From: the human T2T-CHM13v2.0 reference genome, Homo sapiens
Direction: 5' to 3' (one strand)
Assembly: GCF_009914755.1 (NCBI RefSeq)
Contig: NC_060927.1
DNA: 64,000 nt
The translations under genes were made by a program, and so were the position numbers. The notes below the pieces were generated by a model. The model was not told the DNA's origin and made no database searches. It was given only the letters and a program-made list of their open reading frames with translations. Of this stretch, positions 19,829 to 57,706 are shown piece by piece; positions within the stretch are counted from its first letter, which is position 1, and each line of letters begins with the position of its first letter.

Positions 19829-20759
19829 CTCAAAGCACCTCTCTCTTCTTGGGACTAAGGCATTAAATTCAACTGGGGACAAGAGCAGTCAGGAAACAAA
19901 AGTTCTCAGGAAGCTGCCTCACTCCTCACTGCCTCAAGAGATAGACTTTGGTGACCTGCCACTTCTAATGAGGTTCAAGCAGACTCGGCTTAGGCTCAAA
20001 CTAGGAATCCACCAGATGCATGAGAAATCTTGCTCTTTACTTACACATGAAATATATTTTTATTTAATCAACATTGTTTCAGCATGTATTATTTACAAAA
20101 TACTCCATTATGGGTTGTACATATACCAAAACAAGTGAAACAGTCTTTGCCCTCAAAGGATGCAAATTAAGGTGTATGTTGGGGCAGGTGGGGACCTTTG
20201 GGATATAGTAAAAGGAGGGGGCCAAAATGTTCCCAGCTGAAACAGTCTTCTGTAGTTTGGAGAAACCACTAACACCTCTCATATTTACAGCCTATGTAGG
20301 CTTGTTTTCCAGGTGGAATGCCCATCTTCCATTTCCATTTCTCTACGTTCTTGTTTACTTTCCAGGGCCAATTTAAAATGCCAATTTACTAATAAAACCT
20401 GCCCTATTCCCCTCAGCTAATAATGGTGTTGACATCTCAGAACTCCCATCATATCCCACCTTAAGATCAGTTATGTGTGTTGGGGTCTTATGGAGAAAGG
20501 AGGGAGATGTAATGGTACCTCATAGACAAAATGCATTTTAGCCAGTCTTCTTAGATTCACCATGGGATCCAGCATGTGGTGCCATAATAGTTTTTGAAGA
20601 AAGAAAAAAAAAATAAAGGTAATGCATCCTTTCTGTTAATGCCTCACTACTCAGGAAATATATCAGAGAGAACCACAATCAGAGAGAAGAAGAGAGAAAA
20701 CACTGAACACTGACTGGGATAGTAAGAGCACTAACCCCCTTTCTCTTCACTGTTTTCTC

Positions 20760-20940
20760 TGGTTTGATTGGTTCTTTCACCTAGAAACAATGTCCTCGTT
20801 GGTAGATTAGTAGCTGTTAATCTCAGCTGAATGGAATTTCAGCTTATAAGAAGTGGGCTGGCTATATTCCTATTAGTATTTAAGAAGTCCCTTACCTTAG
20901 TGGGTGGTACTTTTTATGGCTGGATTTCCCTAAAGCTGAG
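20760..20940 (+). promoter_or_regulatory. Putative proximal promoter/5'UTR of the ferritin-like gene
   Basis: Non-repetitive stretch with reverse CCAAT (ATTGG 20767), E-box CAGCTG (20824), TATA-like TATAAG (20845) and a uORF at 20916-20933; motif-level evidence only. Confidence 0.35.
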
Positions 20941-21042
20941 ATGGAATATGAAATCCACGGTCCCTTCTCTGAAGAATGTGGAGTTGCTATTAACCGAGTA
21001 GCATCTTATGAGCTGCATATCAGTGATGCTTACTTATCCATG
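20941..21042 (+). CDS. Ferritin-like gene coding exon 1 (helix A)
   Basis: AINRVASYELHISDAYLSM vs FTH1 AINRQINLELYASYVYLSM; donor ATG|GTTAGT at the same codon as FTH1 intron 1. Confidence 0.88.
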
Positions 21043-24000
21043 GTTAGTATGGGTTCTTGAGCAACTGAGAGGGAGGTTTCAGCTCTGCTCTGGGTGATAA
21101 TATAACTTCTATCTTCTTAATAATAGTTCTTATGGCCATATTGGTAGTTGGATACCAGATGAAACAGCAACTCAGTGGTTGGGATATTGCTGCTCTGTGG
21201 CCCTATATTAAAAGCTATGGGCTTTGATAGGGAAAGTTACAGTTCTTTCCAGTGTGTTGCCAAAACTACATGGGCATCAAACACTGGTGATAGACTGAAT
21301 AAACAATTTTATACCTATATGCTATTTCAAAATTAACATAGATGTGTTAGGATTGATGAAATAGATTTTTAAAATGTAAATTTATGCTAGATTTGTGTCA
21401 TATCTACACAATTAAAGGATATAAGTGCTAGCATCTAAGTTCAAAACTATGACCCTTGAAGAAGCCATAAGAGCAAGACATTAGGCACCAGTATATTAGG
21501 ATCTGGATGGCTGATCTTTGAGGTAGACTAGGTTCTGGGGGACAGCCAGAGCCTTCTGAAGTCAAAGAACAAACAGGATCCAAGACTGACCAAAGAAGGC
21601 CTCTTCCTGGACAACCACTGAGACAACAAAGTGAGTTTGTGTGCAATTCAGGTCTTAAAACTATTTTACCTCATCCTCAGCCTCCCCCTTTTCTTACATT
21701 TGACCAGGCCTGTTATTACAGTGAAGATATGAGAATGCCTCCTTTTGCCAAGTTCTTCTCGGAGCAGGCTGAGTTGAAAAGGGAGCATGCAAAGCAGTTC
21801 CTAAGATATCTAAGAAAACGTGAGGGTATTATCTGCCTTCCAGTTATTAAGGTGAATGTCAAACTTTGTTTTGACTTCTGTGGGGCCTTTTCCAGGTCTA
21901 GAGAATTAAACTGATTAGTTGCTATGTAACATTTTAGGTTACTCATGTTCCTACATGGGCTTCTTAGCAACTAACTGACTCTGAAAGCAAGTATATGTCA
22001 ACATCATTTGGGGTAAATTTTAGCCACTAAATGCTTGTTTGGCTTGTCTTAATGAGCGTCACAAAGTTTGGTCGCTGGGTTGTCAGCATCACCTGGGGAC
22101 TCACTAGAAATGCAAATTTGTGGCTCTCACCCCAGACATAGGCCCAAAGAGCTACAACTTAACAAGCTCTCCAGATGATCCTAATGGTATGTGTAGTTTG
22201 AGAAGCGCTACTCTAATGCCTTCTTCTCAGAGGTGTTAGCGTCCTATTTCAGATTGTTAATCTAATTCAGGTACATGTTCAGGTATTTAATATGGCTGTC
22301 TCTTTAAAGTAGTAAAACAAACTTTTTTTGTTTGGGCACACACTCCAAAGAAACAACCTGAGCCTTAGTTGGGACTATTACATCCAGGAACATCCCTAAT
22401 TTTCCTAAGGTGGTTGTTTTGGTTGTTTTTTAACTCCTGCTTTATAAAAAGAAGTAAATGTCTGCTAATGAGAGATGGACCACCATCATAGAATTCCAAA
22501 GCTAATGCAATACTTGTATGTGTACCTGTGCTAGTAGTACCCTTGCTCTGTAGCACATTAAAATCACCTGGGAATCTTTTAAAACTCATGATGCCCATGT
22601 TGCATCCCATACCAATTAAGTCACAGTGTCTACGATTGAGAGCCAAGTATTAACATTTAAGATTCTCAGCTGATTCCATTGCACCTCAAAGTTTGGAGAC
22701 CATTACACTATGCAAACCTAGTCATGGTCCTATGCAGGAAGCAGAATGCAACAAAACTGTGCCTGAAGTAAAAAAGCGACTCTCCTGTTCCTCTTCAACA
22801 GAGGCCCAACATAGATAACTGGGGAAATGGCTTACAAGCCCTGAAGTTTGCTGTGCAGTTGGAGAACACATTAACCAATGTCCTACAAGACCTGAAAATC
22901 ACAGCTACTAAGGATGATGAAACTGGTGTAAGTAGTTAGCTGGTTCTGACAAACAGTGTCATCTTTCACTTCTGGATTATGATTTGCTTCTGAGAAAGGG
23001 GACCAAGGCAATAGATCACCCAACATGTGTTTTTTTCCCTGGAAGGAAGTCTGGGAACTTATTTCTAGGAGTAGTTCGGGAGTGGGCAGATAGCTGTCCT
23101 GGTGAAGAAAAGTGAAATTTACTGTATGGTGAAAACATCTTCCTAGGAGTAATGCACTCTGTAAAATTAAATAAAACAATTGTTCTGTTGCTGTTGGCTT
23201 GTAAATATCCTAAACCAGAAATGCTTAAGCTTTACTGAGCACAAGAATCACTTGGAGTGCTTACTAAAACACACTTCTAGGGCTCACTCCCAAAAGTTGT
23301 TTATTGGGTTGGTTTTGTATAGGTCTCAAGAATGTATTTCTAACAAATCTAGGTGGTGATACAGCTGGCTGATGGCCACAGTTTGAGAACTACTGTTCTA
23401 GACTGTTACTGCAAAAGTAGGTGTTAATGGTGACCTATTACAATACAGACCTCTCTGAGGTCTTCCTGGTTATTGGTAAGCACTCTACCTCAAAGTGATA
23501 ACTTCTTTCTAACTTCCTAGCTTCTCAGGAAGTCAAAGTGAAGAAAATGGGCCTAGTTACAATAGTTTTCAACTCCAGACACATGTTGGACTCAGTGAGG
23601 AGCTCTGAAATGGTACAAATGCTCGAACCTTATGCCAGATCACTTAAATTTTAATCTTTAGGAATGAGGTCTGGGCAGCTACTCAAAATCTCTATGTGAT
23701 TCAAATAATCAGGATTGAAAACCATTGCAGTAGTAGCCTGTTAAAGTAACCTGTACTTTTAATAAGACAACCTAATACTCATACCCATTGAAAGTAGGTG
23801 CTTGTATTCACCTAAAGGTCTTGAATATCTTAGATCAGTGCTGCTGGATCTTCAATATGCATATGAATCACCTAGTCTTTCTTAAAATTCAGAGGCTGGT
23901 TTAGTAAATCTGGAGTGGAGCCTGAGATTTTGAATTTCTGACATGCTCCCAGGACTGCTGGTCCCTGGGCTACAATATAGGTAGATTCTTGTTGCAGACA

Positions 24001-24193
24001 TGGTCCTCAATGTGGGTGCTTCCCTGTTTTATTTCTATAGCTCATAGACTTCGTAAAGGAGTTCATAGATAAACAGACAGCAAGCATAGCTTTTCTGGAA
24101 TACCATCAGAAGCTATTAGAAGAGTCCCTCCAGCAGAAAGGCCTGTCTGAAAAGTCTGCTGAGTCTGCTGAGACATCAGTTGAAGAGACCTAA
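20941..24193 (+). CDS. Four-exon ferritin-like (ferritin-domain) gene, join(20941..21042,21708..21851,22802..22927,24041..24193), 174 aa; candidate orthologue of mouse Ftdc1/Ftdc2
   Basis: Spliced ORF without stops or frameshifts: MEYEIHGPFSEECGVAINRVASYELHISDAYLSM|ACYYSEDMRMPPFAKFFSEQAELKREHAKQFLRYLRKREGIICLPVIK|RPNIDNWGNGLQALKFAVQLENTLTNVLQDLKITATKDDETG|LIDFVKEFIDKQTASIAFLEYHQKLLEESLQQKGLSEKSAESAETSVEET*. About 30% identity to FTH1 by hand alignment; phase-0 GT-AG introns at FTH1 positions; Kozak gagATGg; AATAAA at 24334. Confidence 0.88.
21708..21851 (+). CDS. Ferritin-like gene exon 2 (helix B, BC loop)
   Basis: Acceptor with pyrimidine tract ...tttgaccag|; FAKFFSEQAELKREHA vs FTH1 FAKYFLHQSHEEREHA; donor AAG|GTGAAT. 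Confidence 0.9.
22050..23980. mobile_element. Cluster of about five MER5A/MER5B-like MITEs in introns 2-3 of the ferritin-like gene (~22050-22212, 22535-22705, 23215-23400, 23560-23730, 23835-23980)
   Basis: Recurrent atcacctgg...aaatgca and aagtttgagaa(c)cactg motifs. Confidence 0.65.
22802..22927 (+). CDS. Ferritin-like gene exon 3 (helix C)
   Basis: Acceptor ctcttcaacag|; 126 nt/42 aa, the same length as FTH1 exon 3; RPNIDNWGNGLQAL vs KPDCDDWESGLNAM; donor GGT|GTAAGT. Confidence 0.9.
24041..24193 (+). CDS. Ferritin-like gene exon 4 coding part (helix D plus divergent acidic tail)
   Basis: Acceptor ttttatttctatag|; LIDFVKEFIDKQTASI vs FTH1 LCDFIETHYLNEQVKAI; TAA at 24191-24193. Confidence 0.87.
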   Translation, partial: LIDFVKEFIDKQTASIAFLEYHQKLLEESLQQKGLSEKSAESAETSVEET

Positions 24194-24294
24194 CTTCTGA
24201 AGGCAGCAGCACAGCAAGTCTTGCCATTATAGTGATCTCAGAGTCAGCTACTTAAGAGTCTTGGTCAGTTCCACTTGCCTGAAGACTGCTTTCC

Positions 24295-24339
24295 TTTTTA
24301 TCTAGTTTCCTAATCCTCTTTGCTGTGCATGCAAATAAA
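24295..24339 (+). terminator. 3'UTR CPE (TTTTTAT 24295-24301) and polyadenylation signal (AATAAA 24334-24339) of the ferritin-like gene
   Basis: Both motifs read directly, 100-145 nt after the stop codon. Confidence 0.65.
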
Positions 24340-25024
24340 TCTGCTTTGCATTATAACTATGTGTAAAAATATTGGTAGAACTAATGCTTCCAGTGCTCCA
24401 ATAGCAATGTGGAATTGGTATAAAAAGCTTCCTGAGACAGTGGGTGTGTTAGGCTAAAAAAAAAATCTTCCCTCTACCATGCCCCCACCTTACCTTAGCA
24501 CCCAGAGTCAGGATTTGGTAAATGCAAGCAGTACAAGTGGATATACTAGAAATTAAGTGGTGAAACCTTAAGTCTCAATGTTCTCCTCTTATTTGTATAT
24601 GTACTTTAAGTATACAATATAATAGGGGTTCCTTCATATTAAACGCAGACCTAAGATGGAAAACAATTCTTGGTCTAGAAAGGGTGACTTTCACGTGAAG
24701 GATGGTGCAGTGCCATTTCATAGCCAAGGTAGGTGTAGGCAACAGGAGGGTACACAGAGGCAATTAATGCATTGCAGCCAAGTGTGTGGATGCCCCTATC
24801 CATTCCACTGTAAGCCAATTAGCAGCTACTAGGGTAATTACTTTCAGGAGCAAAGAATGAGCATGCAAGCTTGAGTCAGGCTTCTCAGGGCCTCATGTGA
24901 CTAGTACCCTCTAGGAAGAAATAGGGGCTCTATAGGATTGTGCGCTGGCTCCAAAACTTACTAACTCCTTGGCCTTGAGTTTATACCTCTTCATTGCCTC
25001 AGTTTGGTCATCTGTAAAGTGAGG

Positions 25025-50778: not shown

Positions 50779-51107
<329 letters not shown>

Positions 51108-53548: not shown

Positions 53549-57706
<4,158 letters not shown>

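What the first reader, a model, noticed from the sequence alone, without database searches (positions are those of the whole stretch)
20941..24339. Hidden intact four-exon ferritin-fold gene, mostly invisible to the ORF track
Seen in the sequence: four short exons with canonical splice sites join into a 174-aa ORF with no stop or frameshift, a strong Kozak context and a polyA signal. Established: FTH1 has three phase-0 introns after YLSM, after ..DIK and after ..NDPH, and a 126-nt exon 3; this gene has introns at the same three codons and a 126-nt exon 3. It is therefore an old genomic duplicate, not one of the many intronless ferritin retrocopies (FTMT, FTHL17, FTH1 pseudogenes). Inference: about 30% identity to FTH1 with the frame and all six splice sites intact, amid heavily decayed repeats, implies purifying selection. 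From memory, mouse has oocyte-expressed ferritin-domain genes (Ftdc1/Gm813, Ftdc2/E330017A01Rik) in the Cpox-St3gal6 interval; this may be the poorly annotated human counterpart. I cannot confirm its annotation status.
Basis: partly seen in the sequence, partly recalled or inferred. Interest (0 to 1): 0.92.

Follow-up and report, generated by a model that had tools for sequence, protein, structure and literature searches.

The report
Unlisted intact human ferritin-like gene
An intact four-exon gene for a ferritin-like protein lies unannotated between CPOX and ST3GAL6, where mouse has egg-cell genes, and may be a fifth human ferritin-family gene that cannot oxidise iron.

Summary
Exons 20941-21042, 21708-21851, 22802-22927 and 24041-24193 (+) join through GT..AG, phase-0 introns into a 174-codon frame with a stop and an AATAAA signal. 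The joined protein scores 112.5 bits against a profile of 11 canonical ferritins; the best of 1000 shuffles scores 6.1.

I mapped FTH1 and FTL in the same genome. Their three introns fall in the same alignment columns, so this is a DNA-level paralogue, not a retrocopy.

It is single-copy in this genome. It belongs to a fast-evolving family; all named members are eutherian. That family is predicted automatically in about 100 other mammals. No Homo sapiens protein appeared among the hits, and RefSeq lists no gene here.

The orang-utan model equals human at 133 of 133 residues (neutral expectation 8-9 changes). Human-monkey divergence is near neutral, yet the frames stay open.

Position Glu62 is Lys or Arg in 19 of 19 family rows, and no E helix or IRE was detected. 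I predict a ferroxidase-dead, probably oocyte-restricted subunit.

Human expression, GENCODE status and the fold could not be tested.

The parts
20824..20884 (+). Putative core promoter: CAGCTG E-box (20824-20829) and TATA-like tataa (20845-20849) and tatttaag (20877-20884). CpG-poor.
   Evidence: Read directly. The 500 nt before the ATG have GC 0.394, CpG o/e 0.05 and 1 CpG. The motifs were seen only and not tested; the transcription start is unknown.
20941..21042 (+). Exon 1 coding part, 34 codons (helix A; carries E24 = H-chain E27 and Y31 = Y34). Ends ...YLSM|gt.
   Evidence: 18.3 bits alone against the canonical ferritin HMM. Identical to the chimpanzee model P0060 at 34 of 34 residues.
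21043..21707 (+). Intron 1, phase 0, gt..ag. An alternative in-frame acceptor (AG at 21679-21680) would add 9 codons.
   Evidence: The Pygathrix model P0002 uses the upstream acceptor (insert PPPFLTFDQ). The same frame is open in human (P0001).
21708..21851 (+). Exon 2, 48 codons (helix B and the start of the long loop; L57-K58 replace E61-E62; H61 = H65).
   Evidence: Pfam Ferritin 28.7 bits, cut-off 24.5. PDB ferritins at E 6e-8. FTH1 and FTL exon 2 are 147 nt.
21852..22801 (+). Intron 2, phase 0, gt..ag, with decayed interspersed repeats.
22802..22927 (+). Exon 3, 42 codons = 126 nt, as in FTH1 and FTL (helix C; E103 = E107).
   Evidence: 26.6 bits alone against the canonical HMM.
22928..24040 (+). 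Intron 3, phase 0, gt..ag, with decayed interspersed repeats.
24041..24193 (+). Exon 4 coding part, 50 codons plus TAA (helix D with Q136 = Q141, then an acidic Ser/Glu-rich tail in place of helix E).
   Evidence: The canonical HMM match ends at profile position 152 of 172.
24194..24360 (+). 3' untranslated region with AATAAA at 24334-24339.
   Evidence: The cleavage site was not determined.

Best explanation
This is the intact, single-copy human member of a fast-evolving mammalian ferritin-like gene family; every named member found is eutherian. In mouse, the same CPOX-ST3GAL6 interval holds Gm813 and the oocyte-expressed E330017A01Rik.

Shown: the gene arose by DNA-level duplication of a four-exon ferritin gene and keeps all three ancestral phase-0 introns.

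Inferred: it encodes a 174-residue, roughly 20-kDa four-helix-bundle subunit that cannot oxidise iron. The bridging Glu62 of the di-iron centre is Lys and Glu61 is hydrophobic throughout the family. Lys58 and Glu103 occupy the positions of the Lys62-Glu107 salt bridge of L chains. The C-terminal helix E that lines the four-fold pore is replaced by an acidic Ser/Glu tail. No iron-responsive element was found in or near the gene.

Most likely it is made in oocytes or early embryos from a CpG-poor promoter. There it would act as an L-like, catalytically silent subunit, self-associating or joining FTH1/FTL shells, rather than as an iron oxidase.

It has probably escaped human annotation because expression is confined to cells that cDNA libraries rarely sample.
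For: Shown:
- Exon structure and open frame.
- Ferritin homology: 112.5 bits against at most 6.1 for 1000 shuffles. Pfam PF00210 scores 60 bits for P0006, which equals human residues 42-174.
- Intron columns are identical to FTH1 (114/147/126/165) and FTL (102/147/126). The locus is 102/144/126/153.
- Single copy: of 23 genome matches to P0006, 3 are these exons at 84-100% identity and the other 20 are at 28-39%.
- Family: 123 proteins at E<=1e-10, of which 120 were listed. All named family members are eutherian; named non-mammal hits at the bottom of the list (python, shrimp, fish) are canonical ferritins. There are 35 representatives at E<=1e-30. The clade has 100/100 support.
- Short unnamed contigs of 713-2598 nt carry spliced family coding sequences.
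- Constraint: Pongo is identical at 133 of 133 residues, where 8.1-9.2 changes are expected (P 1e-4 to 3e-4). Pan differs at 1 of 126.
- Frame survival under neutrality has P=0.022 for a path of d=0.05 and 4.9e-4 for d=0.1, yet macaque, Pygathrix and Sapajus models are open.
- Active site: E27, Y34, H65, E107 and Q141 are kept; E61 is L and E62 is K. Position 62 is K/R in 19 of 19 family rows and E in 4 of 4 canonical rows. It is K/R in 32 of the 33 top representatives that have a residue there.
- Passages of PMC7760355 say Glu62Lys suffices to abolish ferroxidase activity in FTHL17. Passages of PMC11396501 describe the L-chain Lys62-Glu107 salt bridge.
- No IRE at E<=1 in 20000-24600. The control found IRE_I in FTH1 (54.1 bits) and FTL (57.1 bits).
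- Synteny and oocyte expression in mouse.

Inferred: oocyte expression in human, lack of catalysis, and assembly behaviour.
Against: - No human transcript, junction read or peptide was seen.
- Protein divergence from monkeys is close to neutral: macaque 17 of 168 against 20.7-22.5 expected; Pygathrix 17 of 174 against 23.2; Sapajus 44 of 171 against 38.6. These use recalled genome-wide divergences.
- Differences are spread evenly over exons in primates (chi-square p 0.19-0.83).
- On the human branch alone, zero changes since the chimpanzee split is not significant. My estimate is about 2 expected, P about 0.12, by the method.
- The Pan model lacks exon 2 and the Pongo model lacks exon 1. This could mean damage in those species; no primate DNA was available to check.
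- RefSeq predicts the gene in apes but not in human.
- Family members often lose E27 or H65, so even metal binding is doubtful.
- The mouse proteins were not compared.
- No structure could be predicted.
Confidence: 0.6

Rival explanations
1. A silent relic. The family is functional in other mammals, but the human copy is no longer expressed or needed and simply has not yet acquired a disabling mutation (a unitary pseudogene in waiting).
For: - No gene model in RefSeq here (hub table) and no human protein among the relatives found.
- Near-neutral protein divergence from monkeys.
- With loss of constraint only after the human-chimpanzee split, an intact frame and zero changes would be unremarkable (about 2 changes expected; method).
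- Ape models are partial.
Against: - Human equals Pongo at 133 of 133 residues, where neutrality predicts 8.1-9.2 changes (P 1e-4 to 3e-4). Both lineages were therefore constrained for most of the time since their split.
- All six splice sites, the ATG context and the polyA signal are intact.
- Oocyte-restricted human genes are known to have been missed for lack of cDNA: CCDC201 and H2BE1 (section 7 of PMC6886504).
Confidence: 0.2
2. A functional protein with a role unrelated to iron storage. For example, a nuclear or regulatory role like that proposed for FTHL17, or a structural egg or embryo protein, acting as a monomer or dimer rather than in a 24-mer shell, possibly outside the oocyte.
For: - Family members frequently lose E27 and H65 as well as E61/E62.
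- Channel residue E134 is K.
- No E-helix-like motif in 33 of the 35 top representatives.
- The best-conserved block is the basic stretch of helix B and the long loop.
- Passages of PMC7760355 describe FTHL17, also Glu62Lys and germ-line restricted, as partly nuclear and possibly regulatory.
Against: - Y34, E107 and Q141 are invariant in 19 of 19 family rows, and acidic residues persist at cavity positions 57, 60 and 64 in most. That fits retained metal or mineral contact.
- Passages of PMC6917665 report that an FTL mutant with a disrupted E helix still assembles into 24-mers.
Confidence: 0.15
3. A chance open frame or a mis-joined set of fragments.
For: Exons 1, 3 and 4 alone give no Pfam family.
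Against: - 112.5 bits against at most 6.1 for 1000 shuffles.
- Collinear exon matches and intron positions identical to FTH1 and FTL.
- Orthologue models in many mammals use the same exon boundaries.
Confidence: 0.01

Closest known systems
Mouse Gm813 and E330017A01Rik (recalled current names Ftdc1 and Ftdc2, 'ferritin domain containing')
   Same: Same chromosomal interval between St3gal6 and Cpox (passages of PMC11913378; hub table for human). [quoted passage not shown] Other rodents carry clear family members (Acomys, Lemmus, Arvicanthis).
   Different: Mouse has two or three genes there; human has one. The rodent proteins seen are very divergent (38-30% identity to macaque) and have lost E27 and often H65. 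The mouse proteins themselves were not retrieved, so orthology rests on synteny plus other rodents.
FTH1 (ferritin heavy chain)
   Same: Four exons and three phase-0 introns in the same alignment columns; exon 3 is 126 nt; E27, Y34, H65, E107 and Q141 are conserved.
   Different: Only 31.6% identity. E61 is L and E62 is K; E134 is K. No E-helix match. No IRE, whereas FTH1 has one. The promoter is CpG-poor.
FTL (ferritin light chain)
   Same: Lys at position 62 opposite Glu107. Acidic residues at 57, 60 and 64. Exon-1 coding length of 102 nt and a 50-codon last exon. Both lack a complete ferroxidase centre.
   Different: Keeps E27, H65 and Q141, which FTL has replaced by Y, G and E. 29.1% identity. 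No E helix and no IRE. A clade with FTL is neither supported nor rejected (AU p 0.149 and 0.183).
FTHL17
   Same: Germ-line-restricted ferritin-like protein with Glu62Lys and no ferroxidase activity (passages of PMC7760355).
   Different: FTHL17 is an X-linked intronless retrogene within the FTH1 clade. This locus is autosomal, keeps the introns and forms its own long-stemmed clade.
CCDC201 and H2BE1
   Same: Precedents for conserved human coding genes missed until 2019 because transcription is limited to female reproductive or early developmental cells. The mouse counterpart of CCDC201 came from the same FIGLA study (section 7 of PMC6886504).
   Different: These are unrelated proteins and are now annotated. 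The present locus was not found in that paper's Supplemental Data S1-S5 or in the stored part of S6.

Membership tests
Ferritin-like domain (Pfam PF00210), eukaryotic ferritin type | Significant match to the family profile | tested here: met
   Exon 2 alone scores 28.7 bits against a 24.5 cut-off. P0006, which equals human residues 42-174, scores 60 bits over profile positions 30-140 of 142. The joined protein scores 112.5 bits against my HMM of 11 canonical ferritins.
Vertebrate intron-containing ferritin genes (FTH1/FTL type) | Four coding exons with three phase-0 introns at conserved positions | tested here: met
   FTH1 is 114/147/126/165 nt with introns after YLSM, QDIK and NDPH. FTL is 102/147/126 nt. 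The locus is 102/144/126/153 nt with introns in the same alignment columns.
H-type (catalytic) ferritin | Complete di-iron ferroxidase centre: E27, Y34, E61, E62, H65, E107, Q141 | tested here: not met
   5 of 7 residues are kept; E61 is L57 and E62 is K58. Position 62 is K/R in 19 of 19 family rows. Glu62Lys abolishes activity in FTHL17 (passages of PMC7760355).
L-type ferritin | Lys62-Glu107 pair replacing the metal site, plus cavity glutamates 57, 60, 61 and 64 (the residue list is recalled) | tested here: inconclusive
   K at 62, E at 107 and E at 57, 60 and 64 are present, but 61 is L and 27/65/141 remain H-like. The salt bridge is described in passages of PMC11396501.
Shell-forming ferritin | C-terminal helix E lining the four-fold pore; three-fold channel residues D131 and E134 | tested here: not met
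   The canonical HMM match stops at position 152 of 172. The tail is an acidic Ser/Glu stretch with 3 hydrophobic residues in 24. D131 is kept; E134 is K.
Shell-forming ferritin | Assembly into dimers and 24-mers | not testable with these tools
IRP-regulated ferritin mRNAs | Iron-responsive element in the 5' untranslated region | tested here: not met
   No IRE at E<=1 in 20000-24600 and none in the whole window at gathering score. The control found IRE_I in FTH1 and FTL. A distant non-coding first exon cannot be excluded.
Processed ferritin copies (FTMT, FTHL17, FTH1P/FTLP pseudogenes) | Intronless, continuous match to the mRNA | tested here: not met
   There are three introns of 665, 950 and 1113 nt. 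The retrocopies appear as continuous matches elsewhere in the genome.
Orthologue of mouse Gm813 / E330017A01Rik | Conserved position between CPOX and ST3GAL6 | tested here: met
   Hub gene table for human; passages of PMC11913378 for mouse.
Orthologue of mouse Gm813 / E330017A01Rik | Sequence relationship to the mouse proteins; oocyte expression in human | not tested
No human expression data are on hand.

The most novel reading that the evidence does not exclude
Humans have a fifth, functional ferritin-family protein-coding gene that is missing from RefSeq and from the ferritin literature. That literature lists FTH1, FTL, FTMT and FTHL17 and speaks of one intron-containing H gene. The new gene would encode an oocyte or early-embryo subunit that is ferroxidase-dead and lacks helix E. 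It may descend from a third vertebrate ferritin lineage rather than from FTH1 or FTL; the best tree groups it with a python 'heavy chain A-like' ferritin and unnamed relatives at 89/92 support, and frog M ferritin is its best PDB match. It would have passed through a burst of change on the ape stem followed by complete protein stasis in human and orang-utan.
Probability: 0.45. Interest if true: 0.78.

Novelty: new member of a known kind. Interest (0 to 1): 0.64.

Why it matters
Reviews of the human ferritin family name four coding genes and call all other copies processed pseudogenes (passages of PMC7760355 and PMC4794146). An intact, intron-bearing fifth member would revise that list.

It would also add a candidate to the small set of oocyte-restricted human genes. 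That bears on maternal iron handling, oocyte quality and unexplained infertility. Peptides or variants at this site are at present discarded as non-coding.

The gene is also a clean natural experiment. A ferritin fold has been kept for the whole eutherian radiation without its catalytic glutamates or pore helix.

The claim is cheap to test with existing human oocyte RNA-seq and ribosome-profiling data.

Tried and rejected
There is no fold, no fold search and no test of self-association.
- P0005, an unnamed 877-nt record whose first 46 residues match exon 2 plus four intron codons, looked like a possible human transcript. Its other parts match chromosome 3 at 89.4 Mb (80%) and chromosome 1 at 178.3 Mb (90%), so I treat it as chimeric and not as evidence.
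- Origin of the family: AU tests reject neither a clade with FTH1/FTMT/FTHL17-like (p 0.066 and 0.118) nor one with FTL (p 0.149 and 0.183). In some searches I left out P0171, P0130, P0144 and P0135 from the careful tree as long or odd rows.
- A second copy in the window or genome: none.
- Pfam on the five longest minus-strand frames inside the locus: 0 of 5 had a family.
- The repeat finder saw only one 31-nt inverted pair upstream.
None of the listed papers describes a human gene at this site. 'Ftdc1' and 'Ftdc2' occur only as bacterial strain labels in the listing.
- PhyloCSF paper (PMC6886504): Supplemental Data S1-S5 and the stored part of S6 (cut when stored) hold none of 'ferritin', 'FTH1', 'E330017A01Rik', 'Gm813', 'CPOX', 'ST3GAL6'. 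They also hold no chromosome-3 coordinate starting 98624-98629, which is my rough GRCh38 estimate. Its PDF supplement could not be read.
- The 1986 FTH1 gene paper was not held under the id I tried, so I derived FTH1 introns from the genome instead.
- A Monte-Carlo neutral simulation timed out and was replaced by an analytic Poisson count.
Full report
**What is in the sequence.** On the + strand an ATG at 20941 (context gagATGG, in-frame stop upstream at 20881) opens a frame. It runs through four exons: 20941-21042, 21708-21851, 22802-22927 and 24041-24193. Together they give 525 nt, or 174 codons plus TAA, with no internal stop.
- All three introns are gt..ag, follow a pyrimidine tract and are phase 0.
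- AATAAA lies at 24334-24339.
- The exons sit in stop-to-stop frames of 58, 130, 55 and 50 codons. This explains why an ORF list shows little.
- The five longest minus-strand frames in the locus match no Pfam family (0 of 5).

**It is a ferritin, and not by chance.**
- Exon 2 alone passes Pfam's Ferritin cut-off (28.7 against 24.5 bits). Exons 1, 3 and 4 alone give nothing.
- Exon 2 hits solved ferritins at E 6e-8.
- Against an HMM that I built from 11 canonical animal ferritins, the joined protein scores 112.5 bits over profile positions 5-152 of 172. Exons 1, 2 and 3 alone score 18.3, 32.2 and 26.6 bits at collinear positions. The best of 1000 shuffles scores 6.1.
- P0006, an orang-utan model identical to human residues 42-174, scores 60 bits in Pfam. 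It finds 234 solved ferritin sequences at E<=1e-5; frog M ferritin is best at 1.2e-18 and human H chain follows at 2.4e-14.

**The intron argument, tested in the same genome.** The window's assembly can be searched.
- A fish ferritin located FTH1 exon by exon on chromosome 11, and FTL on chromosome 19.
- Mapping two FTH1 retrocopies on the FTH1 locus gave coding exons of 114/147/126/165 nt, with introns after YLSM, QDIK and NDPH.
- FTL is 102/147/126 nt, and its 175 codons leave 153 nt with the stop.
- The locus is 102/144/126/153 nt. In the pairwise alignment its three introns fall in the same columns as those of FTH1, and identity is 55 of 174 = 31.6%.
- Identity to FTL, FTMT, an X-linked FTHL17-like copy and an FTL retrocopy is 28.5-31.6%.
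- This is therefore a DNA-level paralogue. The retrocopies appear instead as continuous, intronless matches.

**Relatives.**
- A search with exon 2 returned 8 proteins among 10 candidates. One is the window's own frame. The others include primate, tree-shrew and bat models.
- A profile search returned 123 proteins at E<=1e-10, of which 120 were listed. The named family members are bats, artiodactyls, carnivores, perissodactyls, pangolins, a mole, elephant, manatee, squirrel, spiny mouse and primates. Their automatic names include 'ferritin, heavy subunit-like' and 'soma ferritin-like'. The named non-mammal hits near the bottom of the list (python, shrimp, fish) are canonical ferritins. No listed name is Homo sapiens.
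- An exhaustive HMMER search found 35 representatives at E<=1e-30, ahead of a continuum of ordinary ferritins.
- In trees the family is one clade (100/100) on a stem of about 1.1 changes per site, and it roughly follows mammalian orders.
- In the human genome only this locus matches closely: 3 of 23 matches, at 84-100% identity. The other 20 are at 28-39%.
- Short unnamed contigs of 713-2598 nt carry spliced family coding sequences, which are transcripts from other mammals.

**Origin.** The best tree joins the family to a python 'ferritin heavy chain A-like' protein and unnamed relatives (89/92), apart from the FTH1 and FTL clades. AU tests reject neither alternative: p is 0.066 and 0.118 for the FTH1 group, and 0.149 and 0.183 for FTL. 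The origin is unresolved.

**Selection, for and against.** The expectations below use recalled genome-wide divergences (0.0123, 0.030-0.034, 0.060-0.065, 0.11) and a recalled indel ratio, and were computed. The orang-utan sequence is a cluster representative.
- Human equals the orang-utan representative at 133 of 133 residues. It differs from a chimpanzee model (exons 1, 3 and 4) at 1 of 126 residues, and that change lies on the chimpanzee side.
- From the human codons, neutrality predicts 8.1-9.2 changes against orang-utan (P 1e-4 to 3e-4) and 3.2 against chimpanzee.
- Against this, macaque differs at 17 of 168 residues (20.7-22.5 expected), Pygathrix at 17 of 174 (23.2 expected) and Sapajus at 44 of 171 (38.6 expected). 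These ratios are 0.73-1.14.
- Differences are spread evenly over exons in primates.
- There are 12 sites where both Old World monkeys differ from human. Of these, 3 are derived on the ape stem, 4 in the monkeys and 5 are ambiguous.
- A neutral frame would stay intact with P 0.022 over d=0.05 and 4.9e-4 over d=0.1, yet all these models are open.
- My reading is that the frame and a core block are under selection. That block is helix B to the loop, with 12 of 48 exon-2 columns invariant among 16 non-rodent rows against 3 of 50 in exon 4. The rest evolves fast, as in many reproductive proteins, with stasis in great apes that I cannot explain.
- A loss of function confined to the last few million years of the human branch is not excluded.

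**Predicted biochemistry.**
- Mapped on H-chain numbering, E27, Y34, H65, E107 and Q141 are kept. E61 is Leu57, E62 is Lys58, and channel residue E134 is Lys.
- Position 62 is K/R in 19 of 19 family rows and E in 4 of 4 canonical rows. Position 61 is non-acidic in 18 of 19.
- I examined 60 of the 150 listed representatives. Of the 35 at E<=1e-30, 33 have a residue at position 62 and 32 of those are K/R. Only 2 of the 35 have an E-helix-like motif.
- Passages of PMC7760355 state that Glu62Lys suffices to abolish ferroxidase activity in FTHL17.
- Passages of PMC11396501 describe the L-chain Lys62-Glu107 salt bridge, and FTL in this genome indeed has K at 62.
- The tail after residue 150 is acidic and Ser/Thr-rich.
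- Passages of PMC6917665 report that an FTL mutant with a disrupted E helix still forms 24-mers, so shell formation is not excluded.
- No IRE is found, while the same search finds it in FTH1 and FTL.
- The 500 nt before the ATG are CpG-poor (o/e 0.05).

**Comparison with what is known.**
- Passages of PMC11913378 place Gm813, Gm49701 and E330017A01Rik between St3gal6 and Cpox in mouse.
[quoted passage not shown] PMC9513667 lists it as falling in a mouse ovarian-insufficiency model.
- That these mouse genes are ferritin-domain genes named Ftdc1 and Ftdc2 is recalled, not shown. The mouse proteins were not retrieved.
- Reviews of the human family list FTH1, FTL, FTMT and FTHL17, call all pseudogenes processed, and speak of one H gene with three introns (passages).
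- The hub's RefSeq table has no gene between 16412 and 53550.
- My ten literature searches found no description of a human gene here.
- The searchable supplements of the PhyloCSF study do not list it.
- Section 7 of that paper gives the precedent of CCDC201 and H2BE1, oocyte-restricted genes missed for want of cDNA.

**Verdict.** The locus is a new (human) member of a known but uncharacterised mammalian family. Whether it is expressed and needed in humans is open.

Noticed in passing
window 22060-22210(-), 22550-22700, 23235-23400, 23850-23990: Four decayed copies of one old interspersed repeat lie in introns 2 and 3 (mean column identity 55%). Two of them give sub-threshold Rfam mir-544 matches: 36.9 and 22.5 bits against a gathering score of 66.5.
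   Followed up: partly
window 21681-21707: An in-frame alternative acceptor lies 27 nt upstream of exon 2 (AG at 21679-21680). A Pygathrix gene model uses it, adding nine residues, and the frame is open in human too.
   Followed up: partly
window 55202-55762 and 55766-56647 (+): The annotated processed pseudogene WWP1P1 keeps long open pieces. One has two WW domains (76.5 bits). The other is a 294-residue stop-free HECT domain covering profile positions 14-302 of 306 (292 bits).
   Followed up: no
L020 = G000:C20:4054868-4055377 (+): An FTL retrocopy has an intact 175-codon frame that differs from FTL at only a few residues.
   Followed up: no
P0005 (unnamed 877-nt record); L041-L043: This chimeric record has residues 1-46 matching exon 2 plus four intron codons of this locus. 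Its later parts match chromosome 3 at 89.4 Mb and chromosome 1 at 178.3 Mb.
   Followed up: yes
family members in bats (for example P0009, P0015, P0020, P0030 of Molossus; P0011, P0045, P0058, P0059, P0067 of Eptesicus): Several bat species carry many distinct family members, some on one contig and some fused to a V1R-type domain (PF03402 in P0036 and P0067). This suggests lineage-specific expansion.
   Followed up: no
window 50808-50924 (+): This is the only Rfam match at gathering score in the whole window. It matches Metazoa_SRP at 71 bits against a gathering score of 70, as expected of an Alu element.
   Followed up: no
primate orthologue proteins (P0006, P0060, P0003, P0002, P0004): The human and orang-utan proteins show complete stasis, but divergence from monkeys is near neutral, with at least three substitutions fixed on the ape stem (G14, N85, F98). 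This is unexplained.
   Followed up: partly
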